A stretch of DNA of 63,442 nt, the filler included, from Babesia bigemina (lineage: Eukaryota), in NCBI RefSeq assembly GCF_000981445.1. It is 6 parts of 6 records of this genome, joined end to end, with 100 filler letters (N's around TTAATTAATTAA, not from the genome) between each part and the next. Parts side by side here need not be neighbours in the genome. Positions count along the whole stretch, not along the records: positions 1 to 15,769 come from NW_012237310.1; 5 more parts are not named here. The stretch is one strand, 5' to 3'. The position numbers and the translations under genes are program-made. The notes below the pieces were generated by a model. The model worked only from the letters and a program-made list of their open reading frames with translations. It was not told the origin of the DNA and searched no databases. This document shows positions 6,807 through 60,864 of this stretch, one piece after another (position 1 is the first letter of the stretch; each line of letters starts with the position of its first letter).

Positions 6807-8398
6807 GGATGTAGAGTGGGTTAAGGGGCGATGTGGAGTGGATAGAGGGGCGATGTAAGGTGGGTTAGGGAGCGATTAGAGGAGGTTAAGGGGCGATGTA
6901 GAGTGGATTAGGGAGCGATGCAGAGTGGGTTAAGGGGCGATGTAGAGTGGATAAAGGAGCGATGTAGAGTGGATAAGGGAGGGATGTAGAGTGGGTAAAG
7001 GGCGATGTGGAATGCGTTAGGGAGCGATGTAGAGTGGATAAGGAGCGATGTGGAGTGGATAAAGGGGCGATGTAGAGTGGGTAAAGGAGCGATGTGGAGT
7101 GGATAAAGGAGCGATGTAGAGTGGGTTAGGGAGCGATGTAGAGTGGATAAAGGGGCGATGTAGAGTGGGTAAAGGAGCGATGTAGAGTGGGTAAAGGAGC
7201 GATGTAGAGTGGATAAAGGGGCGATGTAGAGTGGGTAAAGGAGCGATGTAGAGTGGGTAAAGGAGCGATGAAGGGTGGATAGAGGAGCGATGTAAGGTGG
7301 GTTAGGGAGCAATGTGGAGTGGGTTAGGGAGCGATGTGGAGTGGATAAAGGGGCGATGTATAGTGGGTTAAGGAGCGATGTAGAGTGGTTTAGGGGCGAT
7401 GTGGAGTGGATAGAGGGGCGATGTAAGGTGGGTTAGGGAGCGATTAGAGGAGGTTAAGGGGCGATGTGGAGTGGACAAAGGGGCGATGTAGAGTGGATAG
7501 AGGAGCGATGTGGAGTGGATTAGGGAGCGATGTAGAGTGGGTAAAGGGGCGATGTGGAGTGGGTAAAGGAGCGATGTAGAGTGGATTAGGGAGCGATGCA
7601 GAGTGGGTTAAGGGGCGATGTAGAGTGGATTAGGGAGCGATGCAGAGTGGGTTAAGGGGCGATGTAGAGTGGATAAAGGAGCGATGTAGAGTGGATAAGG
7701 GAGGGATGTAGAGTGGGTTAAGGGGCGATGTAGAGTGACTAAAGGGGCGATGTAGAGTGGGTAAAGGGGCGATGTAGAGTGGATAAAAGGGCGATGTAGA
7801 GTGGGTTAGGGAGCGATGTGGAGTGGGTTAAGGGGCGATGTAGAGTGGATTAGGGAGCGATGTAGAGTGGGTAAAGGGGCGATGTAGAGTGGATAAAGGC
7901 GCGATGTAGAGTGGATAAAGGGGCGATGTAGAGTGGGTTAAGGAGCGATGAGGAGTGGGTTAGGGAGCGATGAAGAGTGGGTAAAGGGCGATGTAGAGTG
8001 GGTAAAGGGGCGATGTAGAGTGGGTTAAGGGGCGATGTAGAGTGGGTTAAGGGGCGATGTAGAGTGGATTAGGGAGCGATGAAGAGTGGGTAAAGGGGCG
8101 ATGTAGAGTGGGTTAGGGAGCGATGTGGAGTGGGTAAAGGGGCGATGTAGAGTGGGTAAAAGGGCGATGTGGAGTGGATAAGGAGCGATGTGGAGTGGGT
8201 TAGGGAGCGATGTAGAGTGGATAGAGGAGCGATGTGGAGTGGATAAGGGGCGATGTAGAGTGGGTTAAGGAGCGATGTAGAGTGGATAAAGAAGCGATGT
8301 GGAGTGGGTTAGGGAGCGATGTAGAGTGGATAAAGGAGCGATGTAGAGTGGATAAAGGAGCGATGTAGGGTGGGTTAAGGGGCGATGTAGAGTGGATA
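6807..8398. repeat. 22-bp G-rich tandem array (GCGATGTAGAGTGGGTTAAGGG/GGGTTAGGGA variants)
   Basis: GCGATGT(A/G)GAGTGG every 21-22 bp; strong G skew. Confidence 0.95.
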
Positions 8399-8432
8399 AC
8401 AATCACCACTTTGGTCAGCTGCTTGGTCACCA

Positions 8433-8657
8433 CTGTCATCGCTGCTGTGTCCATGTCATCGCTGCCGTGTTGATGTCATCGCTGCCGTGACCATGTCATC
8501 GCTGCCGTGTCCATGTCATCGCTGCCGTGTCTATGTCATCGCTGCCGTAACCATGTCATCGCTGCCGTAACCATGTCATCTGCTTTGTCACCACTGTCAT
8601 CGCTGCCCTGACCATGTCATCGCTGCCGTAATCATTTACTGTCATCGCTGCCGTGAC
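8433..8657. repeat. 20-bp tandem minisatellite
   Basis: (GCTGCCGTGACCATGTCATC)n variants. Confidence 0.92.
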
Positions 8658-9097
8658 CACTAACTTGGTCAACACTTTGGTCAACACCTTGGTCATGGCA
8701 TTGGTCAGCACCTTGGTCAGCACCTTGGTCATGGCATTGGTCACCACTCAGGTCAGCACCTTGGTCAGCACTTTGGTCACCACTTTGGTCATGGCATTGG
8801 TCACCACCTTGGTCACCACGTTGGTCAGCACCTTGGTCAACACTTTGGTCAACACCTTGGTCATGGCATTGGTCAGCACTTTGGTCACCACTTTGGTCAT
8901 GGCATTGGTCACCACCTTGGTCAACACGTTGGTCAGCACCTTGGTCAGCACCTTGGTCATGGCATTGGTCACCACTCAGGTCAGCACCTTGGTCAGCACT
9001 TTGGTCACCACTTTGGTCAACACATTGGTCAGGTGCTTGGTCAGCACATTGGTCATCACGTTGGTCACCACGTTGGTCAGCACATTGGTCAACACTT
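8658..9097. repeat. 12-bp tandem minisatellite
   Basis: TTGGTCA core every 12 bp. Confidence 0.95.
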
Positions 9098-9223
9098 CAG
9101 TTAACTACTACACAATCACATATTACAACAATTAATGAGTGATAGAACAGATTAAAGCACAATTCATAAGTTAGGTGAGTAGGTGATGCTAGGTGAGTGT
9201 AGATAGTAAACACGTGAGTGAGA
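9098..9223 (-). other. Conserved 3' tail/UTR of ves cassette 2
   Basis: Nearly identical to 606-728. Confidence 0.8.
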
Positions 9224-12200
9224 TTATGGTTGCAGATAAAACACCCTGTTAAGCTTGTTAACACGTGCGGCGGCAAGTAGTGATTGAGCAGCGATACGAT
9301 GACTCGAGGGACTATTCAAATGCGATTTGATGTGGAGGAGGTCTAGGCGGATGACCATGATGTGTATGAGGTAGAGGAGAGAGAGGAGCCAGAGGGCTAC
9401 ATTGAGCCAGAAGAATTTTTCTCTAATTTTCCAAAGGAAGTTCGGAATGGTGATATATGTCAAATCGCCAAGAACATTACCCTTTTTCAAAACCTTATTT
9501 AATGCGTTGCAGAAGTCTTGGCACGTTCGTTTCGTTTCCGGGCCATAGGTTCCGCTGAGGTTTGATTCGCTCTGAAATACAAATCCGTATTTGCATAATG
9601 TCGGACGTGTGAATGGGCACTGAGCAATTGACCTACAGTTTTTAGAATGAGTGGAGGTATGGGAAACTAAACAGTTCTGGTGACACGTCTTACCATGACA
9701 CCGTGATCCTGGGGTTTTGCAGTTTTTGCAACACTCTTCGTACAGCTTCTTGAGTAAATCGTAAAATGCTTCCGTGAGATAGACAATCCAAGTGAGATAT
9801 TTGTCGGCATTGACTTCGGAGAAAACTGTCCATATATTGTGGCCAAATGGCTGCATATACCGGCCGCATTCCATTTCAGTTTTGTTACCGTAATCGCACG
9901 TAAATAAACTATGCAGCTCACCGTTAACGTGATTACCGGTCTTGTGATCGCTGCCCTTAAATATCGTGGTTATATCCAAATCTGGATATGCTTCACCGAA
10001 ATGGGCCTTGCTGACGGCATCGTTAAAAGCATTGCTTTTATGCATATTGCGTTTGCTGTTATTACCATTCCAACCTTTAAGTAGATGGTAGTAGAATGAG
10101 AACATGTCGTCCAAGGTCCGCGGAGCTCGCTGTAACAAGCACGTAAGTGAGGCGCAGATTGCAGCCAAGGGTGTATTAGGTGTACCGCAGAAGGCTGCTA
10201 AAGCATCTGCGAGATGCGATCCTTTTTTTGTATGTGACGCCGTTACACTGATATCTGCAAAGCCCATTGGAGTTTTGCATGGTATGCCACGATGGTTTGG
10301 CGCTTCGCAAGTTAGTTTGCAATTGGGTGTTTTGAAGGGGTGAGGGAGAAACCCAGGCAGACCATCCTCCAAGAATGACTGCAGAGGCGACTTTATGCCA
10401 CACTTCGGGTGTTGCTCACACGTTTGGTCAGCGTTTTGGTTACACTTTTGGGCACCTCTTTGGTTGGCAATTAGGTCAGCGCATTGTATCTCATTGCACT
10501 CCCATGACGAACCGCCCACGTGCCGACCATAATAACAATCACGCCACGATACAGCGTTTGATGCACGATGACACTGAACGTATATGAAGTAGAGTTGATT
10601 ATATAGTCTAATCAGTATTTCTATGCATAGGTCTAGACACTTTGACGGATTACTTGGATATGACAACTTGTCCGGGTTCGTATTGAAATCACAGGCGTAA
10701 CGACCACCTGCGTGTCCGTGGCCTAGTATTGCACACAATACCTCATACGAATGATGGCATACCTCCATAAGTGTGGTCGAGAGATTTGCAACGCTGACTT
10801 CATGTGGATAAGCTGGCAATGCGTCGGCGGTGTCGTCATCGAAGGATACGTCCTCACTGTCAGCTGGCGCAGAGTGTTCAGGCTTTTCGAAAAAATCGCT
10901 AAATGCGTTAAGCGATAGTTGCGGGTACACCGGATTATACGTAAGCCCGCAGAGCCATGAGAGCATCTGGTAGATGTTGCATGGCAGCTTAGATGACTGT
11001 ACAGTTGGTAGGTGACAGACCATATAATATTGGTTGACGTGTTGGATGATGCAAGTAATAATGCCAACTATATTGAATCTATTTTGCGATTCTTTGCCTC
11101 GGCAATCCTTGAGATGCACATTATAGTGGGCGTCTTGAATATTCGTATTAAGGTTACGAAGTATGTGCCTGCCCATCATGCCAACAGAGCATTGCAACTC
11201 ACCGTCCTGATTGCTGTTGGCGGATGGTATCTTATAGCCGCGTGACAGAAAGAAGTCCCCCAGAGGGTTACCTCTCGCATCAGAGGTTTCGTATATTTTT
11301 CGTCCTTTCCACTCTGCTTGCTCCGTGCACTGCTTATGCAACTCGGTCAAATCATCGCAAATCACTTTAAAAATAGACATACAAACTTTCGCAGCATGAC
11401 GGCTCTCTTCCGTTTCTTTGTTAGCAAACAGTTCGTCCCAACTAATTTGTTTCGCACCGTCATACGTAGAGATGTATGTCTTTCTCAGTTCGCCAATCAA
11501 GCCGCCCAGCCCGCTGGTGATTCCGTCGAGAATGGCGCTGTTCGGGTTAGAGAACCCCTGTGGAGTTAGGTCACTAACCGCCGATTCCAGTGAGTCAAGC
11601 AGGCCGGGGATTTGGCAGTCGTACTTGTTTTTGTCGGTGACGTGAGTGAGTAGCGCGTTGAGCGATTCGGTGATTTTAGATAGACCAGTTAAGTATGGTT
11701 GCGGATCCTCACTTTTAGGGTTTCTCTTATTGTTTTCGTTTGTTACTCTTTTGATCTCCTTGTTGAGATAATCGTGCATTGGTTGCCAAGAAGCGTTGAA
11801 TGCGTACGATAAATCTTGCAGTCTCTTTGCATCATTTTGGCCCTCAAGCAACTTAATGTTCCTATCATTGTCACCAGCGAATGCCTCCATGAACCCTTTA
11901 AATCCGATATGCATATCCTTTTCAATGGCCTCGGGTAGGTTGGTGAGTTCGGCGGTAACCTTGGCGGCAAAGGCGTCGAGTAGCAATCGCATGGTAGTAA
12001 CATAATGTTTTCGCGTCTGAGTTGTAAGTGCTCTACTTACGTTGTCGACTTGATTCTCAACTACATTCTTTATCACAGTGATAGCACCCTCGCCGGCATC
12101 GTCGGCCTCTCTACTAACAAAGGTGTGAGACAACTCAATTGCTAATGGCAAATTAACGCTTTGCAAAGTGTTGATCTGCTTTTTAATTTTTTTGAGCTGT

Positions 12201-14788
12201 ACTCCGATATTCGTATTTCTCAAATCTTGTAAAATACCCATGGCATTGCCGCCTGCATTCGTTATATTTGCACTCAGTTCTGCGAATCTACCGAGCACAT
12301 CAGCGGCATGATCTCTTATCGCGTTTTTGGACTCTTCGGCTTGTTGAATAATACTACTGATTTCGTCTTTAAGAGGTTTAAGTTTGTCTTGAACGATTGC
12401 AGTGACTGCCTCCTGAAGATTTCCCATACCGTTAATTACAGCGCCATTAACTAGATCTAAAAGTTTTTCGTTGAAATCACCTGCAATAGATCTATCTTTC
12501 ATTGATGATGTAACGTTGGTGCCGATGAGTTGAACAAATCTTTCCCATCCCACAGCGTTATCTTTTTTTACGGAATTAAGATAGTACAATAAAATTTCAA
12601 AGCAATAACCCAGACCCCCCTTCTCTGTGTCAGATTTTGCCGTTGTGAACAACAATCCGAATGTGCCAAGTTTACCTTTTATATCCTCTCCCAAATGATC
12701 AATCATAGCGTTGAGCCCGGGTGTCGTCGTGCGACTGAAATTATCCGCCTTCTGGATCCCTGCCTCCAAAGCCTCCTTCACATACTTCAGATAATTCTCA
12801 ACGTTTGTATGTATTGCTTTGGTGAGCCCTTCTATTTCATTTTTCAATCCCCATTCATCCGTTTTCTTAAATCCTTCCAAGCTCTTCGGCTCATTAACCT
12901 TATTTTCCGCATCATCTAGCATATGTATCACGCATTCCTCATCATTTCCATCTCCACTCTTCCCTTTAATTAGCTTAAATAGCTTTTCGTATTCAGACTT
13001 AGCAGATTCAAAGTGCCTATGTAGCAATCCGGCTTCCGTCTGAATCAAGTCAGCAGTTGTTTTAATCCTTTCAGCGCTCATGCTTCCAGTGCCATCAATG
13101 TCTCCTAATATGACTGCAACCTTACGTAGAGCTTCATCCAAGATTCTCTGCGCATCTTCCATCCACGTTGCTAAATTGTACACGTACTGCTGCATATTAT
13201 GTTCAACTTCAATGAGCTTATCCCTAATTTTAGTAACCAGCGATTTCAAATGCTTCACCAACGATCTTACTTGCATCTCAATTTCCTCATTTATCTGTTT
13301 TTTTAGCTCGCTTAACATTTTCTTTACCAAAGCGCTCATCTCCTCCAACTCCTTTTTTTCTTTGGTTGACAACTCACTGAGGCGCTTAATTTCATGCTCA
13401 ATACAGTCTTTCACATCATATACTTTTAACATTAGAGTATGATTTAGGTCATTTACGTTATCCTTGTTTTCATTTATGGCTCCGCAAAAATCTTTTGCTT
13501 TCCCAAGACATGCCTCCGCCAGATCGGTCGCCGCCTTGACCTGATTATCCTCATTATCAGGGTCGGCAGATACACTTTTGACTTCAATCGTCTCAAACGT
13601 GTTATTAAATTCACTTTCAATATAATCATGAAATATTTTTATAGGCGTACTTACATTTTCATTTGACCTCTTCACCTTCTCATTATACCTCCCCACCCCT
13701 TCGACCACACTTCCAATCGCAACATTAAAACCTTTTTTACCAAGGTGTTTATTGGTGTTAAGAGTGTTAATTGCATCTGTAATTGTCTCTTTATGCTGCC
13801 CTAAATGCTTGTAGATGTTACTGAGAACACCACTCAAAAATCCCATCACCCCGTCACACAGCCTGTCAAGGTCAGAGTACACAATCCCCTGGCCGTCGTA
13901 GCCTTTGGAAGTCTTATCGTAACCAAGAAAAGTCTGAAGGCCGTCACATAAATTATCTAAGAGATTTTTAGGCTCATTTGAAGGCTTACTAACATTAACA
14001 TAAAATCCACAAAGCTTCTCCACTTCCTTCAAAGCCTGCAACTTGGACTGCAATTTGGCTGACTCAGCAGAGGGAGAGGGGGAAGAAAGAAGATTATTAG
14101 GAAGGTTATTTGGCTTATTAAGGCTATTAATATGCTGTTCAGTTTCAGTAATTTCTTGGTTAACTCGCTCACTAAGCTTCTCAATTTCACCGGTGTCATC
14201 AGCCTGGTCAGCAGAGTTGACAGACTCAGAAAGGTTAGTAACATAAGAAGAGTAAAGATGTTTTAGGTCATTTTTAAGGTCTTTATTAGTGTCAAAAACA
14301 ACGATAATAGCATTCTCAACGGCTTTCTTAACACTCTCACTCTCACCAACAAAAGCGCCAAGCTGTCCAGCCAGGTGACCAAGCTGGACAATCTTCTCTT
14401 CAACAGACTTCAAGGCAGGAGATGGAGGATGTTTTTTGTGAGCATTTATACAATCTTCTAGACATGTTTTATAGAAGTTAATACTATGATTATCTGGGAT
14501 ATTTTCAACGGTTTTTTTGGATTCTTTGAATTTTTTCTCAGCCTCGTCATGCAGTCTCTGGTAGTACTGACAGTAAGTCTCCTTATCAGAGTATTTGAAG
14601 GGGCATTCAAGTTTATCTTTTTCGGCTTTAAGGGACTTTTCAGCCTTCTCAATAGCCTCCTCAATCAACTTTTTCAAAGCTTGAGACAACTGGTCAAGAC
14701 CATCACCACCATCACCATTCCCATACCTAACCTGGATCAACCAGTCGATGGACTCAGTCAGAAGGGGAGGTGAAGGGGGACAAGGCAC
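9224..14788 (-). CDS. ves1: VESA1/ves1-like cassette 2; lacks the MAPKKLTDCPENLR-type start (ORF-track start is GTG; first in-frame ATG at 13846)
   Basis: ESIDWLIQVR N-terminal motif, GIVYSDLDRLCDGVM, SPLQSFLEDGLPGFLPH, TM segment and conserved tail. Confidence 0.87.
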   Translation of the reverse strand: MPCPPSPPLLTESIDWLIQVRYGNGDGGDGLDQLSQALKKLIEEAIEKAEKSLKAEKDKLECPFKYSDKETYCQYYQRLHDEAEKKFKESKKTVENIPDNHSINFYKTCLEDCINAHKKHPPSPALKSVEEKIVQLGHLAGQLGAFVGESESVKKAVENAIIVVFDTNKDLKNDLKHLYSSYVTNLSESVNSADQADDTGEIEKLSERVNQEITETEQHINSLNKPNNLPNNLLSSPSPSAESAKLQSKLQALKEVEKLCGFYVNVSKPSNEPKNLLDNLCDGLQTFLGYDKTSKGYDGQGIVYSDLDRLCDGVMGFLSGVLSNIYKHLGQHKETITDAINTLNTNKHLGKKGFNVAIGSVVEGVGRYNEKVKRSNENVSTPIKIFHDYIESEFNNTFETIEVKSVSADPDNEDNQVKAATDLAEACLGKAKDFCGAINENKDNVNDLNHTLMLKVYDVKDCIEHEIKRLSELSTKEKKELEEMSALVKKMLSELKKQINEEIEMQVRSLVKHLKSLVTKIRDKLIEVEHNMQQYVYNLATWMEDAQRILDEALRKVAVILGDIDGTGSMSAERIKTTADLIQTEAGLLHRHFESAKSEYEKLFKLIKGKSGDGNDEECVIHMLDDAENKVNEPKSLEGFKKTDEWGLKNEIEGLTKAIHTNVENYLKYVKEALEAGIQKADNFSRTTTPGLNAMIDHLGEDIKGKLGTFGLLFTTAKSDTEKGGLGYCFEILLYYLNSVKKDNAVGWERFVQLIGTNVTSSMKDRSIAGDFNEKLLDLVNGAVINGMGNLQEAVTAIVQDKLKPLKDEISSIIQQAEESKNAIRDHAADVLGRFAELSANITNAGGNAMGILQDLRNTNIGVQLKKIKKQINTLQSVNLPLAIELSHTFVSREADDAGEGAITVIKNVVENQVDNVSRALTTQTRKHYVTTMRLLLDAFAAKVTAELTNLPEAIEKDMHIGFKGFMEAFAGDNDRNIKLLEGQNDAKRLQDLSYAFNASWQPMHDYLNKEIKRVTNENNKRNPKSEDPQPYLTGLSKITESLNALLTHVTDKNKYDCQIPGLLDSLESAVSDLTPQGFSNPNSAILDGITSGLGGLIGELRKTYISTYDGAKQISWDELFANKETEESRHAAKVCMSIFKVICDDLTELHKQCTEQAEWKGRKIYETSDARGNPLGDFFLSRGYKIPSANSNQDGELQCSVGMMGRHILRNLNTNIQDAHYNVHLKDCRGKESQNRFNIVGIITCIIQHVNQYYMVCHLPTVQSSKLPCNIYQMLSWLCGLTYNPVYPQLSLNAFSDFFEKPEHSAPADSEDVSFDDDTADALPAYPHEVSVANLSTTLMEVCHHSYEVLCAILGHGHAGGRYACDFNTNPDKLSYPSNPSKCLDLCIEILIRLYNQLYFIYVQCHRASNAVSWRDCYYGRHVGGSSWECNEIQCADLIANQRGAQKCNQNADQTCEQHPKCGIKSPLQSFLEDGLPGFLPHPFKTPNCKLTCEAPNHRGIPCKTPMGFADISVTASHTKKGSHLADALAAFCGTPNTPLAAICASLTCLLQRAPRTLDDMFSFYYHLLKGWNGNNSKRNMHKSNAFNDAVSKAHFGEAYPDLDITTIFKGSDHKTGNHVNGELHSLFTCDYGNKTEMECGRYMQPFGHNIWTVFSEVNADKYLTWIVYLTEAFYDLLKKLYEECCKNCKTPGSRCHGKTCHQNCLVSHTSTHSKNCRSIAQCPFTRPTLCKYGFVFQSESNLSGTYGPETKRTCQDFCNALNKVLKKGNVLGDLTYITIPNFLWKIREKFFWLNVALWLLSLLYLIHIMVIRLDLLHIKSHLNSPSSHRIAAQSLLAAARVNKLNRVFYLQP

Positions 14789-14844
14789 AAGTTTTTATTG
14801 TGGTTTAAAGAGGTCATAGCGGTAATATGGCGAGGTGATTCGAG
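14789..14844 (-). other. Conserved cassette leader (short type)
   Basis: CGAATCACCTCGCCATATTACCGCTATGACCTCTTTAAACCAC... joins the array to the ves frame; the leader ATG is out of frame and stops. Confidence 0.75.
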
Positions 14845-15769
14845 GGATGTAGAGTGGGTTAAGGGGCGATGTAGAGTGGGTAAGGGAGCGATGTGGAGTG
14901 GGTTAAGGGGCGATGTAGAGTGGGTTAAGGGGCGATGTAGAGTGGTTTAAGGGGCGATGTAGAGTGGGTTAGGGAGCGATGTAGAGTGGGTTAGGGAGCG
15001 ATGTAGAGTGGGTTAGGGAGCGATGTAGAGTGGATAAGGGAGCGATGTAGAGTGGGTTAAGGGGCGATGTAGAGTGGGTTAAGGGGCGATGTAGAGTGGG
15101 TTAAGGAGCGATGTAGAGTGGATAAAGGAGCGATGTAGAGTGGGTTAAGGGGCGATGTGGAGTGGGTTAGGGAGCGATGTAGAGTGGGTTAGGCAGCGAT
15201 GTGGAGTGGATAAGGGGCGATGTAGAGTGGGTTAGGGAGCGATGTAGAGTGGGTTAAGGGGCGATGTAGAGTGGGTTAGGGAGCGATGTAGAGTGGGTTA
15301 GGGAGCGATGTAGAGTGGATAAGGGGCGATGTAGAGTGGGTTAGGGAGCGATGTAAGGTGGGTTAGGGAGCGATGTAGAGTGGATTAGGGAGCGATGTAG
15401 AGTGGATTAGGGAGCGATGTAAGGTGGGTTAGGGAGCGATGTAGGGAGGGTAAAGGAGCGATGTAGGGAGGGTAAATAGGCGATGTAGAGTGGGTTAGGG
15501 AGCGATGTGGAGTGGGTTAAGGGGCGATGTAGAGTGGATAAAGGGGCGATGTGGAGTGGATAAAGGGGCGATGTAGTGTGGGTAAAGGGGCGATTAGAGG
15601 AGGTTAAGGAGCGATGTAGAGTGGATAAAGGAGCGACGTAGAGTGGGTAAAGGGGCGATGTGGAGTGGATAAAGGAGCGATGTGGAGTGGATAAAGGGGC
15701 GATGTAGAGTGGATAAAGGGGCGATGTAGAGTGGGTTAGGGAGCGACGTAGAGTGGGTAAAGGGGCGAT
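14845..15769. repeat. 22-bp G-rich tandem array running into a gap
   Basis: Same unit as 6807-8398, rich in GGGTTAGGG variants. Confidence 0.95.
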
Positions 15770-15869
15770 NNNNNNNNNNNNNNNNNNNNNNNNNNNNNNN
15801 NNNNNNNNNNNNNTTAATTAATTAANNNNNNNNNNNNNNNNNNNNNNNNNNNNNNNNNNNNNNNNNNNN
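15770..15869. other. Artificial contig linker N44-TTAATTAATTAA-N44
   Basis: Exactly 100 bp with a six-frame stop core; occurs five times. Confidence 0.98.
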
Positions 15870-16174
15870 CTTTATCCACAATACATCGATCCTTTACCCA
15901 CCTTACATCGCTCCCTAACCCACTCTACATCGCTCCTTAACCCACCTTACATCGCCCCTTTATCCACTCTACATCGCTCCTTTATCCACTCTACATCGCC
16001 CCTTTATCCACTCTACACCGCCCCTTAACCCACTCTACATCGCCTTTTAACCCACTCTACATCGCCCCTTAACCCACTCCACATCGCTCCCTAACCCACT
16101 CTACATCGCTCCCTAACCCACTCTACATCGCTCCTCTATTCACTCCACATCGCTCCTTTATCCACTCCACATCC
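15870..16174. repeat. 22-bp array (C-rich on + strand)
   Basis: (CATCGCYCCTTAACCCACTCTA)n. Confidence 0.93.
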
Positions 16175-16361: not shown

Positions 16362-19300
16362 CTTGCTGATACTGACCATTCTCCTAGTGAGGATGCTACT
16401 AAGAAAGCCTTGCAGGACATTGACTCCAAGCTCATTAGCCTTGGTGAACTGGCTGGTCAACTTGGAGGATTTGTTGGTGACAGTGAGAGTGTTAAGAAAG
16501 CCGTTGTGAATGCTATTATCGCTGTTTTTGACACTAATCCGCACCTTAAAAATGACCTTAAACATCTTTACTCTCCTTATGTTACTAACCTTTCTGTGTC
16601 TGTCAACTCTGCTGGCCAGGCTGATGACACCAAGATAATTAGTGAGCTTAAAGATAAAGTTACTAGTCAAATTACTGAAACTAAAAGACTAATTGATAAC
16701 CTTAATAACCATCTTAATCCCTCTCTCTCTTCCCCCTCTCCCTCTGCTGACCCAGCCAAATTGCAGTCCAAGTTGGAGGCTTTGAGGAAAGTGGAGGAGC
16801 TTTGTGGATTTTTGACTAATCCTAAAAATGCGTCAAATGATCCTAAAAAGCTCTTAGATAATTTATGTGACGGCCTCGAAACCTTTCTCGGCTTCAACTC
16901 TGCTTCCAAAGGCTACGATGGCGCTGGCATTGTGTACTCCGACTTGGATAGGCTGTGTGACGGGGTGATGGGATTTTTGAGTGGTGTTCTCAGTAACATC
17001 AAAGAGCATTTAGGGCAGCATAAAGAGCAAATTACAGAAGCTATTAAGTCACTTGAGACCAATAAACACCTTGGTAAAAAAGGTTTTAATGATGCGATTG
17101 GAAAGGTGGTCGCAGGGGTGCGGGGGTATAATAAGGAAGTTAAAAAGTCTAATAATAACGTTAGATATCCTATAGATAAACTACTAAAAGATCTCGAAAA
17201 TGACGGTACGTTTGATAAAGCTTACAAAAAAATTTATGCTGAGTCGGTTACTGGCAATCCTGAGGACGGCCAGGTGAAGGCTGCTGACAACCTGGCCGAG
17301 CAGTCACTAAAATTAGCCCGTGATTTCTTAGGCGCTTTGCACGAATCAGAAGAACGTGACAAGGCAGTGAGTGATCTTAATCATGATTGCAGAAACAACG
17401 TTAATAATGCGCGCAAAATCATTAAGCACGAACATGATAGGCTTCAAATGAACTTTGGAAATGAGAGTAATGCATCGAGAAATATGGTAGAAGCAGTTAT
17501 TAAAGAAATTACCGGTATGAATGCAAATGTTAATAAGCAGATAGACGAGAAGGTAGCACCATTGATTAACGAGTTAAAGAAGAAGATGCAAGAATTCTTA
17601 GAGCAGGTGGAAAATGGTCCAAAGAAAGATCTAGGTCGGTGGCTTAAAGAAGAAACAGAGACGACGGATCAAGGTAAAAAGTCAAAGAAAGACGCTTTTG
17701 CAGCATCTAGGGATAAAGTGTATGCAGGGGTTGAAAATTTCGAAACGAACTATCACGACATTCATCCACAACTTGAAGCTATTAAAGGGATTGTTCAGAA
17801 AAGTAACAGCACCGAAAAACTTGAGGAATCAGTTGCGAAGATTACCTCGGCAGTGAAAGACGTCGGTGAGCAGCTTGGACTCCAAGTCAAGAGTCTGGAA
17901 CACTGGAGGACTACGGCGCTAGAAGTTGTTAAAGTAGCATTGAAAAGAGTTGATGAAATTGTTAATAAGCTGGATGGTAAGAAGGCAGATCAAGAAGCAG
18001 AGAATAGTGAGAGAGATGAGGTTACTAAGGCAGCTGGCGAATTGAAGGACCAAGCATTGAAGCTTATGACGGCTATAACGGAGGCAACAGGTAAGTTGAG
18101 TACCGGCATTGCAACAGCTGGCCGAGCAGTTACTGATCTGGATGATGCGTTAAAAAAATCTCTGCATTCGCTGAAAACTAGAATAAAGACAACGATTTCG
18201 CAGTATATTGGGAAGTTGTCTGGTGCTCTCGATGCGGGTATGCAGAGTACTAGAGGTTATAGCGGCACAGCAGGTTTCAGTGCTTTCATGAGTAATTTCA
18301 ACAGTGAGCATCCGATAAGTCCAAAAACCGAGTTTGGAAAACGGCTTCAGGAGGTTGGGCGTAATAACATCAAACTTGCAAGAGGCATTCATACAGCTCT
18401 AATAGAACTAAATAACGAGAAATCTCAGTGGAGCAGGATCACTCCCGGATCGAATGAACTTCAGTCTGCAATTAGCAAAGATCTTCAGGATAGTGTCGAC
18501 AAAGAGTTGCCAGATGCTGAGGACGACGAGAAAGTTCTACTTACCAGTCTTGTTAGTTACAGCGCAACGGGCGCCACGGGTTCTAAGCAATGGCTTGAGA
18601 AATCTATCAGCAGTATGCAGGAAAGTGTAAAAGGTAAGCTTGACAACATAGTATATCCCGAAAAAACAGGCAAAATGATAACCGCACATATGATCACAAC
18701 GACCCATCATGAACTGAATATTAAGTTCAAAAGCTTCATTCGTGCCGTCACAAATATTATCAAGAAGGATCCTCATATGGGAAGCAATGAGCATCTCAAT
18801 TACGACTTGAGAAAACTTAATGCTATGCTAGATGGTAAAGAATCTATATACGGCATTAACAACCATTTGAATACGATTCATACTGCACTAAGTGCTATAC
18901 ATAAAAAGGAGTTTGGTGAACAATTATCGAACAGCAGTGTGTATGGCGCCATTTCTGTCGTCACGGATAAAGTTATAATGCTTGAGAAAGCGTCAACTGC
19001 CACTGATACACCGGATGGGAATCTCATGAAGCTTGTTGGCAGTTTACCGAAAGACATGAGGTCCCTTAACAACTGCATTAATACGGTGATCGAAGTTGTT
19101 GAAAATGCAGATAAGCAATTACAGCAATGGATTACAAACGTAGGTGTATATATAGCTACAATGGACAAGACAGGCCACGATTTCGCCGATGGTCTCAAAG
19201 AATTCGTTGATGTATCAATGTCTTATGCCAAGAACATTATTACAACTGACATCCAAAAAGGCTACGTGCGTTCCGTCAAAAGACAACTTAAATATTTCGC

Positions 19301-22127
19301 CATCGTCGCCCATGACGTATTAACACCTCTGCCCGCCTTGGTAGAACAAGACAAACATATCGGCTTCAAGGGGTTCATGGAGGAATTCGCTGGTAAGACG
19401 CCCGAAAACGAGAATATTCAAAAGCTCGTCGAACAAAAGGAAAATAGTAACGTTGAAAAATTATCCGCCGCGTTCCAGCAATTCTGGAAGCCACTGAAAA
19501 ATTATCTCATCACTGAAATTAAGAGAGTAAATACGGAAAATAATGAGAAGAAAAATCCAGTTGGAACAGATCAACAATATTATTCGCACACGCTTCTGAA
19601 AATTAACGACTCACTTGCTGACCTACTTGACCATTTGGGTAAGCAAAACCGCTACGACCATAACCTCCATGGGCTTCTTCAAAAACTTATCTCCGCAAAC
19701 AACGAACTTAAACCGGACAACTTTGCAAAGCCAAATACGCCGGTCTTAGATGGTATTGGAAGCGGGATTAGTAAATTTGTGGACGAGTTGAGGAAGGTCT
19801 ACATATCTACTTACGATAGTGTATCGTTTGATGGCGTGTTGTTTGATAATCATAGATACGAAGTCACGCCGCGAGGAGCTGTAAGCACATATTACTTGAG
19901 TGGGTACGGTAAGAAATGCGCTAAAGTATTTATCACCACCTTGGAAATGCTGAGTAACGATTTCTATACGTTGATCAAAGAATCTATGAAATCGTGGAAA
20001 GCAAGGCAGATTAATACGTATAACGATAATTTATTTGGCAAATGGTTAGAGGATCGTGGCTACAAAGTGGATCGCGAAAAAGGCAAGCAGACCGGTGAGC
20101 TGCAGAACAAAAGTGACATGACCGTGACGACCATCTATGATATTCTCAGCAAAAACATTCGAAGCGTTGTTGAAGTCGATACGCAGACGTCATGGATGAA
20201 AGATATCGTTCAACGCAAGAAAGCGAGAAACGAAAATGCAAACCAAATCAACGTCGTTGACATACTCCTCTTCCTCTACGAACAGGTTCAGATTTACTAC
20301 AAGGTTTCCCACTACAACGTACCTTCGAAGCCTAAAGCGCCAAGCAGCGTGAAAGACATGCTACAGTGGCTTATCGGTCTCCCTCATACCACGGTGTACA
20401 ACGAATTGACAGTTGGCGGTTTTGGTGAGCTGTTTGACAGACCGGAGGAGGAAAAGCTCACTGACGAAAGCGGTCCAACTCTCAAATTGGAAGATGATGA
20501 CAAGTTGGATGCTTACCCTGCAACTATCACAGCCGTAAATCTGAGAGACACACTCACCGAAGTATGCCATTATTCGTACGACGTCCTCGTCAGCCTGCTT
20601 GGTCACGGCCATGCAGGTGGCCGCTATGCCTGTGAGTTCAACACTAATGAAGATAAGTTCTCGTACCCCAATGACATGAACGCGTTAATCTGTAGTATGC
20701 TTGATATCTTAACACGTCTTCACGAGCAACTCTATTTCCTATGTCGCCAATGCCATTACACCACTGATCTCAGCGGATGGGCTAACTGCTGGTATGGTCG
20801 AGATGTCGGTGGCGCATCGTGGAAGTGTAATGCCCTTCAATGTCCTGATCAAAGCGCTGACCAAATACACAACCAAACGTGTAACCAAAAGTGCAACCAA
20901 ATTAGTGACTGCGGCCTTAAATCACCACTTCAGTCATTCCTCGAAGATGGTCTCCAGGGCTTCCTACCGCATCAACTCAAAGTTGAAAGGGGGGCACTTG
21001 TATGTACGGTTAAACACTCCGGTTTGCCGTGTAAAACACCCATGGGTTTCGGAGATATCAGTCAACTAGCATCACACAGGCAACAGGGTAAGCATATCTT
21101 CACTACGCTGTATAAATTCTGTGGTAGCAAATCGTCGCCTCTCACTAGGCTGCGCAGCCAACTCAAATGCATCCTCCCTAATGCACCGAAAACGCTAAAC
21201 GATATGTTTGCATTCTACTTTACTCTACTCAATGACTGGAACGAGGCAGCAGGAACACGCCAGATGCACAGGGAAAACGCATTCAAAAAAGCCGTCATCG
21301 AAGCAAACTTCGAGAATCACAACACAGAGTTGGACATTACTGCCATGTTCAAGAACAGGGATCATGGTCTCAATGCTGCTACCCAGAAAAGCGAGCATAT
21401 TACCGGTGACTTATACGCTCTTGTCGATTGCCATACCAATTCGTCATCCGTTTCATCTCATCCTTGCGGTCCATACTTGAGGCCGATTTGTCAAGACGGG
21501 TTCAGCACATTCACAGCAAAGAACGCGGAAAAATATGTGTCTTGGATCATCTACTCGACAGGGTCATTCCTCCATTTGTTGAAACAGCTGTACGAGGAAT
21601 GTAACAGTAACTGCGCCGGTGACAGACCAAAATGCCGTGTCAGTAGATGTAAGAAGGGTTGTAAAGCATTAGACTCACCGATGTCTCCTGGCTCGACTCA
21701 TGAGAAATCCTGTGGATCTATAGTAGATTGCAAGTTAATGCGTCCTACAATCTACAAATACGGTTTTGTACTTGGCGATTGTGAGAGTCTATCCGCCGAG
21801 TCTAGTAAGCGCACGTGCAAAGATTTGTGTATGGTATTGCAAAGCGTGACTAACGAGAAAGAATCGGCTCATCACCCGCTTGCCGAATTGGTATATCGAA
21901 CTATCCCCGATTTCCTCTTCACAATCCGCGCTCCCTTCATCTGGCTCAACGTCGCCCTCTGGCTCCTCTCCTTCCTGTACCTCCTCCACATCATGGTCAT
22001 CCGCCTCGACCTCCTCCACATCAAATCGCATCTACATAGTCCCTCGAGTCATAGGATTGCTGCTCAATCATTGTTGGCTGCTGGACGTGTTAACAAACTG
22101 GGGAGGGTGTTTTACCTGCAACCATAA
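16362..22127 (+). CDS. ves1: VESA1/ves1-like cassette 3; no 5' ATG (ORF-track start 16410 is TTG; first in-frame ATG at 16968)
   Basis: Same family motifs and C-terminal tail; uninterrupted frame of about 1900 codons. Confidence 0.87.
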   Translation, partial: LADTDHSPSEDATKKALQDIDSKLISLGELAGQLGGFVGDSESVKKAVVNAIIAVFDTNPHLKNDLKHLYSPYVTNLSVSVNSAGQADDTKIISELKDKVTSQITETKRLIDNLNNHLNPSLSSPSPSADPAKLQSKLEALRKVEELCGFLTNPKNASNDPKKLLDNLCDGLETFLGFNSASKGYDGAGIVYSDLDRLCDGVMGFLSGVLSNIKEHLGQHKEQITEAIKSLETNKHLGKKGFNDAIGKVVAGVRGYNKEVKKSNNNVRYPIDKLLKDLENDGTFDKAYKKIYAESVTGNPEDGQVKAADNLAEQSLKLARDFLGALHESEERDKAVSDLNHDCRNNVNNARKIIKHEHDRLQMNFGNESNASRNMVEAVIKEITGMNANVNKQIDEKVAPLINELKKKMQEFLEQVENGPKKDLGRWLKEETETTDQGKKSKKDAFAASRDKVYAGVENFETNYHDIHPQLEAIKGIVQKSNSTEKLEESVAKITSAVKDVGEQLGLQVKSLEHWRTTALEVVKVALKRVDEIVNKLDGKKADQEAENSERDEVTKAAGELKDQALKLMTAITEATGKLSTGIATAGRAVTDLDDALKKSLHSLKTRIKTTISQYIGKLSGALDAGMQSTRGYSGTAGFSAFMSNFNSEHPISPKTEFGKRLQEVGRNNIKLARGIHTALIELNNEKSQWSRITPGSNELQSAISKDLQDSVDKELPDAEDDEKVLLTSLVSYSATGATGSKQWLEKSISSMQESVKGKLDNIVYPEKTGKMITAHMITTTHHELNIKFKSFIRAVTNIIKKDPHMGSNEHLNYDLRKLNAMLDGKESIYGINNHLNTIHTALSAIHKKEFGEQLSNSSVYGAISVVTDKVIMLEKASTATDTPDGNLMKLVGSLPKDMRSLNNCINTVIEVVENADKQLQQWITNVGVYIATMDKTGHDFADGLKEFVDVSMSYAKNIITTDIQKGYVRSVKRQLKYFAIVAHDVLTPLPALVEQDKHIGFKGFMEEFAGKTPENENIQKLVEQKENSNVEKLSAAFQQFWKPLKNYLITEIKRVNTENNEKKNPVGTDQQYYSHTLLKINDSLADLLDHLGKQNRYDHNLHGLLQKLISANNELKPDNFAKPNTPVLDGIGSGISKFVDELRKVYISTYDSVSFDGVLFDNHRYEVTPRGAVSTYYLSGYGKKCAKVFITTLEMLSNDFYTLIKESMKSWKARQINTYNDNLFGKWLEDRGYKVDREKGKQTGELQNKSDMTVTTIYDILSKNIRSVVEVDTQTSWMKDIVQRKKARNENANQINVVDILLFLYEQVQIYYKVSHYNVPSKPKAPSSVKDMLQWLIGLPHTTVYNELTVGGFGELFDRPEEEKLTDESGPTLKLEDDDKLDAYPATITAVNLRDTLTEVCHYSYDVLVSLLGHGHAGGRYACEFNTNEDKFSYPNDMNALICSMLDILTRLHEQLYFLCRQCHYTTDLSGWANCWYGRDVGGASWKCNALQCPDQSADQIHNQTCNQKCNQISDCGLKSPLQSFLEDGLQGFLPHQLKVERGALVCTVKHSGLPCKTPMGFGDISQLASHRQQGKHIFTTLYKFCGSKSSPLTRLRSQLKCILPNAPKTLNDMFAFYFTLLNDWNEAAGTRQMHRENAFKKAVIEANFENHNTELDITAMFKNRDHGLNAATQKSEHITGDLYALVDCHTNSSSVSSHPCGPYLRPICQDGFSTFTAKNAEKYVSWIIYSTGSFLHLLKQLYEECNSNCAGDRPKCRVSRCKKGCKALDSPMSPGSTHEKSCGSIVDCKLMRPTIYKYGFVLGDCESLSAESSKRTCKDLCMVLQSVTNEKESAHHPLAELVYRTIPDFLFTIRAPFIWLNVALWLLSFLYLLHIMVIRLDLLHIKSHLHSPSSHRIAAQSLLAAGRVNKLGRVFYLQP

Positions 22128-22250: not shown

Positions 22251-22578
22251 AAGTGCTGACCAATGCCATGACCAAAGTGCTGACCACAGTGTTGACCAAG
22301 GTGTTGACCAAGGTGCTGACCAAGGTGTTGACCAAGGTGCAGACCTATGTGCTGACCAATGCGATGACCACAGTGGTGACCAATGTGCTGACCAATGCCA
22401 TGACCAACGTGATGACCAACGTGATGACCAACGTGATGACCAATGCTCTGACCAAAGTGCTGACCAATGTGCTGACCAAGGTGTTGACCAAGGTGCTGAC
22501 CAAGGTGTTGACCAAGGTGCAGACCTATGTGCTGACCAATGCGATGACCACAGTGGTGACCAATGTGCTGACCAAGGT
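22251..22578. repeat. 12-bp minisatellite (GTGCTGACCAAN)n
   Basis: TGACCAA every 12 bp; internal 180-bp higher-order duplication. Confidence 0.95.
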
Positions 22579-22682
22579 GATGGTCACGGCAGCGATGACA
22601 TGGTCACGGCAGCGATGACATGGACAAAGCAGCGATGACATGGTTACGGCAGCGGTGACATGGTCGCGGCAGCGATGACAGT
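22579..22682. repeat. 20-bp minisatellite (GGTCACGGCAGCGATGACAT)n
   Basis: About five units. Confidence 0.9.
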
Positions 22683-22703
22683 GGTGACCAAAGTGATGAT
22701 GAT

Positions 22704-23728
22704 TATCCACTCCACATCGCCCCTTTACCCACTCCACATCGCCCCTTAACCCACTCTACATCGCTCCTTATCCACTCTACATCGCTCCTGAATCCACTCC
22801 ACATCGCCCCTTTATCCACTCCACATCGCTCCTTTATCCACTCTACATCGCTCCTTAACCCACTCTACATCGCCCCTTTATCCACTCTACATCGCCCCTT
22901 ATCCACTCTACATCGCCCCTTTATCCACTCTACATCGCTCCTTAATCCACTCTACATCGCTCCCTAACCCACTCCACATCGCCCCTTTATCCACTCCACA
23001 TCGCTCCTCTATCCACCCTACATCGCCCCTTTACCCACTCCACATCGCTCCCTAACCCACCCTACATCGCTCCCTAACCCACCCTACATCGCTCCCTAAC
23101 CCACCCTACATCGCTCCCTAACCCACCCTACATCGCCCCTTAACCCACTCTACATCGCCCCTTAACCCACTCTACATCGCTCCCTTATCCACTCTACATC
23201 GCCCCTTAACCCACTCTACATCGCTCCCTTACCCACTCTACATCGCCCCTTAACCCACTCTACATCGCTCCTTTACCCACTCTACATCGCTCCCTAACCC
23301 ACTCCTCATAGCTCCTTAACCGACTCCACATCGCCCCTTAACCCACTCTACATCGCCCCTTAACCCACTCTACATCGCCCCTTAACCCACTCTACATCGC
23401 TCCCTTATCCACTCTACATCGCTCCCTTATCCACTCTACATCGCCCCTTAACCCACTCCACATCGCCCCTTTACCCACTCTACATCGCCCCTTACCCACT
23501 CTACATCGCTCCTTTACCCTCTCTACATCGCTCCTTTACCCACTCTACATCGCTCCCTAACCCACTCTACATCGCTCCCTAACCCACTCCACATCGCCCC
23601 TTAACCCACTCCACATCGCCCCTTTATCCACTCTACATCGCTCCCTAATCCACTCTACATCGCTCCTTTACCCACTCTACATCGCCCCTTAATCCACTCT
23701 ACATCGCTCCCTAACCCACTCTACATCC
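22704..23728. repeat. 22-bp array (C-rich on + strand)
   Basis: CATCGC core every 21-22 bp. Confidence 0.95.
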
Positions 23729-29035: not shown

Positions 29036-29388
29036 ATGTGGTGACCAATGTGCTGACCAAAGTGCTGACCAATGCCATGACCAACGTGCTGACCAAGGTG
29101 CTGACCAAAGTGCTGACCAATGTGCTGACCAATGCCATGACCAAAGTGCTGACCAAAGTGCTGACCAATGTGCAGACCAATGCCATGACCAAGGTGCTGA
29201 CCAACGTGGTGAACAATGCCACGACCAACGTGGTGACCAATGCCATGACCAGAGTGCTGACCAAAGTGCTGACCAATGTGCAGACCAATGCCATGACCAA
29301 GGTGCTGACCAACGTGGTGAACAATGCCACGACCAACGTGGTGACCAATGCCATGACCAGAGTGCTGACCAAGCACCTGACCAAGTTG
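29036..29388. repeat. 12-bp minisatellite
   Basis: TGACCAA periodicity; 108-bp higher-order duplication. Confidence 0.95.
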
Positions 29389-29531
29389 ATGGTCACGGCA
29401 GCGATGACATGGTCACGGCAGCGATGACTTGGTTAAGGCAGCCATGTCTTGGTCACGGCAGCGATGACTTGGTTAAGGCAGCCATGACATGGTCACGGCA
29501 GCGATGACACGGTCACGGCAGCGATGACATG
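29389..29531. repeat. 20-bp minisatellite
   Basis: GGTCACGGCAGCGATGACAT variants. Confidence 0.9.
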
Positions 29532-29550
29532 GTGAGCAGAGTGGTGATTA

Positions 29551-29786
29551 TCATCCACTCTACATCGCTCCCTAACCCACTCTACATCGCCCTTTTACCC
29601 ACTCTACATCGCTCCTCTATCCACTCTACATCGCCCCTTTATCCACTCTACATCGCCCCTTTACCCACTCTACATCGCCCCTTTATCCACTCCACATCGC
29701 TCCCTAACCCACTCTACATCGCCCCTTTACCCACTCTACATCGCCCCTTACCCACTCTACATCGCCCCTTACCCACTCTACATCGC
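29551..29786. repeat. Short 22-bp array
   Basis: About 11 units of CATCGCYCCTTTACCCACTCTA. Confidence 0.93.
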
Positions 29787-36086: not shown

Positions 36087-36485
36087 ATGTGGTGACCAAT
36101 GTGTTGACCAACGTGTTGACCAAGATGCTGCCCAAAGTGTTGACCAAGGTGGTGACCAATGTGCTGACCAATGTGCTGACCAAAGTGTTGACCAAAGTGG
36201 TGACCAAGCACCTGACCAATGCCATGACCAAAGTGCTGACCAATGCCATGACCAATGTGCTAACCAATGTGCTGACCTAACGGCTGACCAATCTGCTGAC
36301 CAAAGTGGTGACCAAAGTGCTGACCAAAGTGCTGACCAATGCCACGACCAAAGTGGTGACCTAAGTGCTGACCAACGTGCTGACCAACGTGCTGACCAAA
36401 GTGGTGACCTATGTGCTGACCAAAGTGGTGACCTATGTGCTGACCAATGCCATGACCAAAGTGCTGACCAACGTGTTGACCAAGG
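36087..36485. repeat. 12-bp minisatellite
   Basis: TGACCAA periodicity. Confidence 0.95.
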
Positions 36486-36493
36486 TAATAATT

Positions 36494-36989: not shown

Positions 36990-37022
36990 TGGTGACCAAC
37001 CACCTGACCAAAGTGGTGATTA

Positions 37023-37086
37023 TCATCCACTCTACATCGCCCCTTTACCCACTCTACATCGCCCCTTATCCACTCCACATCGCCCC
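37023..37086. repeat. Start of next 22-bp array, cut by gap
   Basis: About three units following the same short linker seen at 8399-8432 and 22683-22703. Confidence 0.85.
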
Positions 37087-60803: not shown

Positions 60804-60864
60804 GGCACAAGTTAGTATTGTGGTTTAAAGAGGTCATAGCGGTATTATGGCGAGGTATTTCTAG
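60804..60864 (-). other. Conserved cassette leader (short type)
   Basis: Matches 14789-14844; its ATG is out of frame and stops. Confidence 0.75.

What the first reader, a model, noticed from the sequence alone, without database searches (positions are those of the whole stretch)
14845..15769. 22-bp array carries telomere-like GGGTTAGGG / GGGTTAAGGG / GGGTAAAGGG tracts with G-quadruplex potential, always directly upstream of ves
Seen: consecutive units give G3-N3-G3-N13-G3-N3-G3 runs. The G-rich strand is always the ves template strand and the array always abuts the cassette 5' end. Known: a G4 initiates Neisseria pilE conversion, G4 motifs are associated with Plasmodium var recombination, and TTAGGG-like tracts can recruit telomere or silencing proteins. 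Inference: a break-initiation or silencing element.
Basis: partly seen in the sequence, partly recalled or inferred. Interest (0 to 1): 0.7.

Follow-up and report, generated by a model that had tools for sequence, protein, structure and literature searches.

The report
Repeat spacer before Babesia antigen genes
In the cattle parasite Babesia bigemina, a 22-bp repeat array is the last of three repeat blocks placed in front of each gene of a tandem set of variant surface-antigen-like genes; it likely serves as shared pairing sequence for gene shuffling rather than as a telomere or a dedicated G-quadruplex switch.

Summary
The array is real: about 42 degenerate 22-bp units at 14846-15769, cut off by a contig end. 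The window is Babesia bigemina. Seven such arrays occur. In 6 of 7 the G-rich strand is the template of a ves1b-like gene and the array ends 28 nt before a conserved leader ATG; the seventh is cut off. G4 potential is modest. This array has 0 canonical motifs, 6 with loops up to 12 nt, and a mean G4Hunter score of 1.04. Only 95 of 200 units keep both G3 runs, and the bases that make the third G are among the most variable. TTAGGG is never tandem and TTTAGGG is absent here, so it is not telomeric. It precedes copies lacking the normal N-terminus, while the one intact-start gene has no array. Same-subfamily genes form a tandem run at a chromosome-scaffold end, with published peptide evidence. 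Best reading (0.45): a homology block like trypanosome 70-bp repeats or Plasmodium TARE5/6. G4 break initiation: about 0.12.

The parts
14846..15769 (+). 22-bp degenerate minisatellite (the finding; array A2), G-rich on +, cut by a contig end
14767..14845 (-). Conserved ~80-bp leader: 28 nt, then ATG (14817) of a short ORF that does not run into the main ORF
9224..14794 (-). G2: ves1b-like ORF, 1856 codons stop to stop, lacking the MAPKKLTDCPENL N-terminus
9096..9223 (-). Conserved ~130-bp 3' flank after the ves stop codon
8664..9095 (-). 12-bp repeat block of the G2-to-G1 spacer
8429..8659 (-). 20-bp repeat block; inverted relative of the 22-bp unit
6808..8395 (+). 22-bp array A1 (72 units), complete
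729..6617 (-). G1: ves1b-like ORF behind array A1 and a doubled leader
15770..15869 (.). Artificial contig linker (N44-TTAATTAATTAA-N44)
15870..16173 (-). 22-bp array A3 (G-rich on -), start of the next contig
16362..22127 (+). G3: ves1b-like ORF
22253..23727 (+). Complete spacer G3-to-G4: 12-bp block 22253-22579, 20-bp block 22580-22685, 22-bp array A4 22707-23727
23876..28912 (+). G4: ves1b-like ORF; leader ATG (23756) in frame but followed by a stop
29036..29784 (+). Complete spacer G4-to-G5: 12-bp block 29036-29372, 20-bp block 29389-29533, 22-bp array A5 29553-29784
29974..35961 (+). G5: ves1b-like ORF
36087..37086 (+). Spacer after G5: 12-bp, 20-bp and the start of 22-bp array A6, cut by a contig end
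43575..48557 (+). G8: ves1b gene with the intact MAPKKLTDCPENLRESIDW start; no array, no leader, different 3' flank (control)
58487..60824 (-). G7: 5' part of a ves1b-like ORF (contig-truncated)
60866..61285 (+). 22-bp array A7, cut by a contig end

Best explanation
The 22-bp array is the gene-proximal block of a 12/20/22-bp repeat spacer that sits in front of each copy in Babesia bigemina's tandem, likely subtelomeric, arrays of ves1b-like genes, and it likely works as shared pairing sequence for recombination between otherwise divergent copies. Shown: fixed block order (stop, 130-bp flank, 12-bp, 20-bp, 22-bp, 80-bp leader, gene); variable block length; a shared pool of unit variants; copies without the normal N-terminus; mosaic patches between copies. 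Inferred: array plus leader give an upstream homology anchor and the conserved C-terminus plus 3' flank give a downstream one, so gene conversion and unequal crossover can copy or amplify whole or partial cassettes. The near-invariant GCGATGT/GTGG core, not the G3 runs, is the likely constrained feature and may bind a chromatin protein. A weak long-loop G4 would be a by-product of the G skew.
For: Order and length: 3 of 3 complete spacers have the same order, with 22-bp blocks of 1588, 1025 and 236 b. The leader matches 6 times, always at an array end (0 in 100 shuffles). It is multi-copy and conserved in two laid DNA runs from two studies: 80 and 125 contig pieces, variants listed at only 8 places, none at the ATG or upstream of it. 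Copies share nucleotide similarity mainly in the first ~1 kb and the last ~200 b. Mosaics: G1 and G2 share an exact 185-b tract; G2 shares 55 identical residues with the intact-start P0009, which is 43% identical over its best alignment. 23 of 67 unit variants occur in two or more arrays. Of the 120 homologues listed (of 154 found), 27 begin with leader-derived peptides; all 27 are B. bigemina and 24 lie on contigs under 50 kb. Of 14 intact-start B. bigemina homologues, 13 lie on one 3.52-Mb record. Fourteen reverse-strand 4-6-kb 'hypothetical' genes run to within 0.9 kb of the computed end of chromosome 3, and 5 of the 14 are among my homologues with non-standard starts (PMC4066756 supplement 3; arithmetic). 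Unit columns: GCGATGT and GTGG are 96-100% fixed; the G3-making columns are 33-64% G. Analogy: 70-bp repeats upstream of VSG genes provide homology for conversion (PMC8612549 passages).
Against: No conversion breakpoint was mapped to an array. The order of units is no more shared between arrays than in shuffles (longest common run 1-3 units in 15 of 15 pairs), so no recent long exchange inside arrays is seen. The one intact-start gene in the window has no array, so an array-bearing recipient locus is not shown; the mosaic patches found lie inside coding sequence and need no array. The subfamily is not simply silent: peptides were assigned to the chromosome-end genes (one with 12 peptides at 394,377 against 988,927 for the top VESA1b), and 9 of 120 homologues read through from the leader ATG. 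That the chromosome-end genes carry the array is inferred from protein subfamily, not seen in DNA. A scaffold end need not be a telomere.
Confidence: 0.45

Rival explanations
1. Neutral minisatellite: the blocks arose by slippage and inversion of a short motif and were carried along when the gene array expanded; they have no selected role.
For: Lengths vary about 7-fold. The 20-bp unit is an inverted relative of the 22-bp unit (p=0.0015) and of the 12-bp unit (p=0.0095) (arms). A short imperfect palindrome lies at the 20/22 junction, as a fold-back origin would give. Unit order is scrambled.
Against: Block order, polarity and the 28-nt distance to the ATG are constant (6 of 6). Seventeen of the 22 columns are at least 90% fixed across arrays while five vary. 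The attached ORFs stay open for 1678-1995 codons despite strong divergence.
Confidence: 0.2
2. Promoter or silencer array: the copies are expressed in place from the leader ATG (read through or spliced), and the array just upstream is a multi-site platform for an ApiAP2-type factor, like SPE2 arrays before upsB var genes.
For: Only 28 nt separate array and ATG, so any promoter for that ATG must lie in the array. The ATG and the sequence upstream show no listed variant in two other runs. 9 of 120 homologues read through. Peptides are reported for the subfamily. SPE2 arrays bind PfSIP2 (PMC2829057 passages).
Against: The leader ATG reaches the main ORF in 0 of 6 window copies. A hypothetical intron can open the frame in all six, but only at the 1st to 7th AG, which chance easily allows. 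It would also discard sequence that still encodes the conserved SIDWLIQV motif in G2 and G7. One contig in run X2 joins 22-bp units at 14766, without the leader. The proteome came from a non-clonal isolate mapped to a reference, so the peptides may come from converted loci.
Confidence: 0.18
3. One reading: an antisense transcript running away from the gene frees the G-rich strand, which folds into long-loop G-quadruplexes, stalls forks or collects oxidative damage, and starts conversion.
For: G3N1-12 motifs: 28 in 4,564 b of arrays against 8 in 58,878 b elsewhere. The orientation matches the pilE sRNA model. The TTA/T12/TTA model oligo folds. G4 motifs are reported enriched near B. bovis ves loci (PMC9047050 passage) and associated with var recombination (PMC5093961 abstract).
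Against: 0 canonical motifs in this array and 1 in all seven; G4Hunter windows at 1.5 or more are rarer than in shuffles. 105 of 200 units lack one or both G3 runs, the two runs are not significantly linked (Fisher p=0.08), and 2-run units do not cluster in any of six arrays (p 0.07-0.83). The RNA-parameter model gives -2.0 and -1.3 kcal/mol for typical pairs against -8.4 and -22.8 for canonical motifs elsewhere in the window; 9 of 40 three-unit windows fold a G4. The array marks the 5'-altered copies, not the intact gene.
Confidence: 0.12
4. Degenerate interstitial telomeric DNA that recruits telomere proteins and spreads silencing.
For: TTAGGG occurs 14x in this array. If the chromosome-end homologues carry the array, its G-strand would run towards the end, as a telomere G-strand does (inferred).
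Against: No tandem TTAGGG; TTTAGGG occurs 0x here and 1x in all seven arrays, TTCAGGG 0x. Related Babesia use TTTAGGG (B. microti probe). The TTAGGG-making columns are the variable ones.
Confidence: 0.05

Closest known systems
Trypanosoma brucei 70-bp repeats upstream of VSG genes (PMC8612549, passages)
   Same: Degenerate tandem repeats of variable length directly upstream of variant-antigen genes in an archive; proposed homology for gene conversion.
   Different: Three blocks of unrelated period (12/20/22 bp), GC 52-58%, strong strand skew, only 28 nt from a leader ATG. Presence at an expression site and use in switching are not shown.
Plasmodium falciparum TARE-5 (12-bp) and TARE-6/Rep20 (21-bp) before var genes (PMC7374410, passages)
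   Same: Distinct degenerate repeat blocks in fixed order and of polymorphic size, a 12-bp block then a ~21-bp block, then the variant gene.
   Different: TAREs occur once per chromosome end and span 20-40 kb; here a 0.9-2.4-kb spacer repeats with every gene. No sequence homology is claimed.
SPE2 arrays bound by PfSIP2 upstream of upsB var (PMC2829057, passages)
   Same: Arrayed short invariant motifs upstream of variant genes.
   Different: Different motif; no binding protein known here.
Neisseria gonorrhoeae pilE G4 with cis-acting sRNA (PMC3547852, passages)
   Same: G-rich strand upstream of a variant gene, oriented as the non-template strand for a transcript running away from the gene.
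   Different: pilE has one G4 whose bases are individually required, at the expressed locus. Here there are many long-loop, polymorphic motifs in front of every 5'-altered tandem copy.
BbigVes1b family (PMC4066756, sections 13, 21, 22 part 1, 23, 26 and supplement 3)
   Same: 28% identity over 1850 columns to BBBOND_0303890, a dominant expressed VESA1b; same C-terminal domain.
   Different: Array-linked copies lack the LTDCPENL N-terminus, and their chromosome-end relatives are labelled 'hypothetical protein' rather than ves1b in that supplement.

Membership tests
Canonical G-quadruplex motif | Four G3 runs with loops of 1-7 nt | tested here: not met
   0 in this array, 1 in 4,564 b of arrays
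Long-loop G-quadruplex motif | Four G3 runs, loops up to 12-13 nt | tested here: met
   6 (loops up to 12) and 11 (central loop up to 13) non-overlapping matches; 14 and 0 of 300 shuffles reach them
G-quadruplex-forming DNA | G4Hunter mean of at least 1.2 (threshold recalled) | tested here: not met
   mean 1.04; 26% of 25-nt windows reach 1.2 against 31% in shuffles
G-quadruplex-forming DNA | Folds in K+ (CD, melting, footprint) | not testable with these tools
   A model oligo of like loop pattern melts near 48 C; the energy model is marginal
pilE-type G4 recombination initiator | G-tract bases individually conserved | tested here: not met
   third-G columns are 64/33/43% G; 95 of 200 units have two runs
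pilE-type G4 recombination initiator | Located at the expressed recipient locus | tested here: inconclusive
   present before 6 of 6 5'-altered copies, absent before the intact G8; the expression site is unknown
pilE-type G4 recombination initiator | Cis antisense RNA through the G4 | not testable with these tools
   orientation is compatible; needs stranded RNA data
Telomeric or interstitial telomeric repeat | Head-to-tail copies of the genus telomere unit (TTTAGGG in B. bovis and B. caballi) | tested here: not met
   0 TTTAGGG here and no tandem TTAGGG; the B. bigemina unit itself was not seen in any paper I read
70-bp-repeat-like homology block | Tandem degenerate repeat directly upstream of archived variant genes | tested here: met
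   6 of 7 arrays abut a leader and gene
70-bp-repeat-like homology block | Also present at the expression site and used as the 5' limit of conversion | not testable with these tools
TARE/Rep20-like subtelomeric blocks | Distinct repeat blocks in fixed order before the variant gene | tested here: met
   12-20-22 order in 3 of 3 complete spacers and 1 cut spacer
TARE/Rep20-like subtelomeric blocks | One set per chromosome end, next to the telomere | tested here: not met
   the spacer recurs between successive genes within one contig
BbigVes1b | Homology to annotated VESA1b, including the conserved C-terminal domain | tested here: met
   E 3e-149 to BBBOND_0303890; shared C-terminus
BbigVes1b | N-terminal LTDCPENL..IDW start seen in the labelled, expressed members | tested here: not met
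   absent in 6 of 6 array-linked copies, present in G8 and in the 7 labelled ves1b proteins that are both in my hit list and in the proteome table. No Pfam VESA family hit for any of 12 ORFs, G8 included.

The most novel reading that the evidence does not exclude
B. bigemina keeps a second, overlooked tier of VESA1b variation: chromosome-end tandem arrays of 5'-capped cassettes (27 leader-type proteins among the 120 listed hits), each fronted by the same inverted-block 12/20/22-bp repeat and 80-bp leader. The cap acts as the common entry point for conversion or activation, a Babesia counterpart of the VSG 70-bp repeat, perhaps helped by weak G4s on the telomere-polarity strand.
Probability: 0.3. 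Interest if true: 0.65.

Novelty: new member of a known kind. Interest (0 to 1): 0.38.

Why it matters
How ves genes are targeted for conversion is open, and published work asked whether flanking motifs like those of other parasites exist in Babesia (PMC4066756 Discussion). This spacer is a concrete candidate in B. bigemina. It marks a subfamily that is mostly on small contigs and labelled 'hypothetical', yet has peptide evidence. It gives fixed landmarks (array, leader, 3' flank) for mapping breakpoints and chromatin. The G4 idea itself is not new for Babesia (PMC9047050) and is weakly supported here.

Tried and rejected
No whole genome was held, so genome-wide counts of arrays were not possible. 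Sequencing-run search: no RNA holder listed; runs X3 and X4 gave only 1-2 laid pieces and were not used. Summed contig depth was not used as copy number. Pfam found no VESA family, only weak coiled-coil hits. Rfam found nothing at gathering scores. Earlier scan notes: nothing in three look-ups. Literature: five array, spacer and leader motifs were not found two-at-a-time in any held paper (papers with only one motif were not listed). Searches listed no paper on this spacer by title or abstract; I checked text passages only in PMC4066756, PMC5660447, PMC10463595 and PMC9047050. Supplement file 1 of PMC4066756 could not be searched, and figures are not held, so a mention there is not excluded. 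Rejected: a coding role for the 22-bp block (stops in the sense frames; the 154-194-codon frames over the 12-bp blocks were not supported by any search); a bidirectional locus at 15769/15870 (contig linker); the leader as a decayed repeat unit (p 0.33-0.90); shared long unit strings between arrays; a strong cruciform of the 20+22 blocks (DNA fold z -2.9, but the MFE structure is rare and the centroid keeps only a junction hairpin); resemblance of the 22-bp unit to the G4 in the last contig's long repeat (score 33, no better than hits inside ves coding sequence). No structure prediction or prokaryote/virus collection scan was run, as these do not bear on a eukaryotic non-coding repeat.

Full report
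Setting. The long ORFs of the window match Babesia bigemina and B. ovata proteins only, among the 120 listed of 154 hits. The window is a chain of small contigs joined by N44-TTAATTAATTAA-N44 linkers at 15770, 37087, 52336, 58387 and 61287. Records of 15,769 and 21,217 b hold proteins identical to window genes, matching the first two contigs. The finding's right edge is therefore a contig end, and its facing neighbour at 15870 belongs to another contig.

Observation. The array is real: TRF gives 42.3 copies of a 22-bp unit with 87% matches. It holds GGGTTAGGG 12 times, GGGTTAAGGG 8 times and GGGTAAAGGG 3 times. Seven arrays occur in the window. Six end 28 nt before the ATG of a conserved leader and have the G-rich strand as template of the adjacent gene; the seventh is cut off. 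The converse fails: G8 (43575-48557), the only gene with the normal MAPKKLTDCPENLRESIDW start, has no array, no leader and a different 3' flank.

G-quadruplex potential. This array has no canonical G3N1-7 motif, 6 motifs with loops up to 12 nt (shuffle mean 3.0; 14 of 300 shuffles reach it) and 11 with a central loop up to 13 nt (mean 1.8; 0 of 300). Over all arrays the 12-nt-loop motif is about 45-fold denser than in the rest of the window (28 in 4,564 b; 8 in 58,878 b). Mean G4Hunter is 1.04, the maximum 1.6, and windows at 1.5 or more are rarer than in shuffles (1.3% against 12%). Of 200 full units in six arrays, 95 have two G3 runs, 77 one and 28 none (A6 gave no full unit). In the 181 units of exactly 22 nt, GCGATGT and GTGG are 96-100% fixed, while the columns that make a third G are 64%, 33% and 43% G. 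The two runs are not significantly linked (p=0.08), and two-run units do not cluster. An RNA-parameter energy model gives -2.0 and -1.3 kcal/mol for typical pairs, -7.2 for one rare variant, and -8.4 and -22.8 for canonical motifs elsewhere in the window. A published model oligo with TTA/T12/TTA loops melts at 46.8 and 48.0 C against 56.6 and 65.3 C with a 3-nt central loop (PMC2995061, abstract and passages; I read the second column as K+). A naked oligo may therefore fold weakly, but the G4 does not look like the conserved feature.

Telomere likeness. B. bovis and B. caballi telomeres are TTTAGGG tandems (PMC10463595, passages); a B. microti probe alternates CCCTGAA and CCCTAAA (PMC3762879, passages). 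This array has no TTTAGGG and no tandem TTAGGG. I saw no paper giving the B. bigemina unit.

Each complete spacer runs: ves stop, ~130-bp conserved flank, 12-bp block, 20-bp block, 22-bp block, ~80-bp leader, next gene (3 of 3 complete spacers). Block lengths vary: 432/231/1588, 327/106/1025 and 337/145/236 b. The 20-bp unit is an inverted relative of the 22-bp unit (p=0.0015; shared AGCGATG) and of the 12-bp unit (p=0.0095). The leader is joined to three kinds of downstream sequence, and its ATG reaches the main ORF in 0 of 6 copies. The ORFs behind it stay open for 1678-1995 codons. A hypothetical intron could open the frame in all six, but chance allows that easily. In two DNA runs from two studies (X1, X2; coded organism A), 80 and 125 contig pieces lie on the leader, with variants listed at 8 places inside the short ORF and none at or before the ATG. 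Loose ends there read as 22-bp units, once joined at 14766 without the leader.

Family and place. G2 is 28% identical over 1850 columns to BBBOND_0303890, a dominant expressed VESA1b (PMC4066756 section 23 and supplement 3). Of 120 listed homologues, 30 have the intact start (14 B. bigemina, 13 of them on one 3.52-Mb record). Twenty-seven start with leader-derived peptides: all are B. bigemina, 24 lie on contigs under 50 kb, 3 are the window's own genes, and 9 read through from the leader ATG. Supplement 3 lists 14 reverse-strand 'hypothetical' genes of 4-6 kb from 8,735,996 to 8,883,084. Adding record lengths 2,541,256 (taken as chromosome 1), 2,823,968 and 3,518,759 puts the chromosome 3 end at 8,883,983. 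Five of the 14 are among my homologues and have non-standard starts. The subfamily therefore likely forms chromosome-end tandem arrays pointing away from the end, and the array's G-strand would have telomere polarity; that these genes carry the array is inferred. All 14 have peptides assigned, one with 12 peptides at about 40% of the top VESA1b, in a non-clonal isolate. This speaks against pure silence.

Exchange. Window copies are alike mainly in the first ~1 kb and the last ~200 b. G1 and G2 share an exact 185-b tract, and G2 shares 55 identical residues with the intact-start P0009. 23 of 67 unit variants recur in several arrays, but unit order is no more shared than in shuffles (15 of 15 pairs). 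Recombination among copies is evident; a role of the array in it is inferred.

Mechanism. I commit to a homology-block role (0.45): array plus leader upstream and C-terminus plus 3' flank downstream bracket a divergent middle, as 70-bp repeats do for VSG genes (PMC8612549, passages). The layout recalls TARE-5 (12 bp) and TARE-6 (21 bp) before var genes (PMC7374410, passages). Rivals: neutral minisatellite (0.2); promoter or silencer platform like SPE2 arrays (0.18; PMC2829057, passages); pilE-like G4 initiator (0.12; PMC3547852, passages; PMC9047050, passages; PMC5093961, abstract only); telomere mimic (0.05).

Novelty. G4 enrichment near ves genes is already in print for B. bovis. I found no description of this spacer in searches or in the passages and sections read of PMC4066756 and PMC5660447; one supplement file and all figures were out of reach. 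It is a new member of a known kind: a repeat block in front of variant-antigen genes. Interest 0.38.

Noticed in passing
window 61387-63442: A GC-rich tandem repeat with 661- and 836-b spacing. Each copy carries a canonical G3N1-7 motif (61822, 62483, 63319), a better G4 candidate than the 22-bp array; possibly a subtelomeric long repeat.
   Followed up: partly
window 6642-6700, 16309-16367, 29921-29979 (approximate): G1, G3 and G5 carry a second, diverged copy of the leader about 135 b downstream of the first, followed by the same frame break.
   Followed up: partly
window 29520-29575 and the matching junctions at 8395-8430, 22685-22715, 36995-37035: A short imperfect palindrome sits at the junction of the 20-bp and 22-bp blocks, as expected if one block arose by fold-back inversion of the other.
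   Followed up: partly
window 23824-23841: An inverted copy of the 20-bp unit lies downstream of the G4 leader, suggesting that this N-terminal extension is of non-coding origin.
   Followed up: no
G2 (9224-14794) versus P0002: The last 598 residues are identical to a protein on a 6,560-b contig: a very recent conversion or duplication, or an assembly duplicate.
   Followed up: no
window 37131-38276 (-) and 49731-52391 (+): Two related ORFs without a Pfam hit flank G8 on the third contig; they look like ves2-type genes (label from recall, not tested).
   Followed up: no
window 40612-41529 (+): A cysteine-rich ORF with a C-terminal hydrophobic stretch and no Pfam hit; possibly part of a ves1a-type gene (untested).
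   Followed up: no
homologues P0026 and P0076 (B. ovata): Annotated N-termini also join a low-complexity leader directly to SIDWLIQV, the junction used in G2 and G7; B. ovata may have similar capped copies with a different leader.
   Followed up: no
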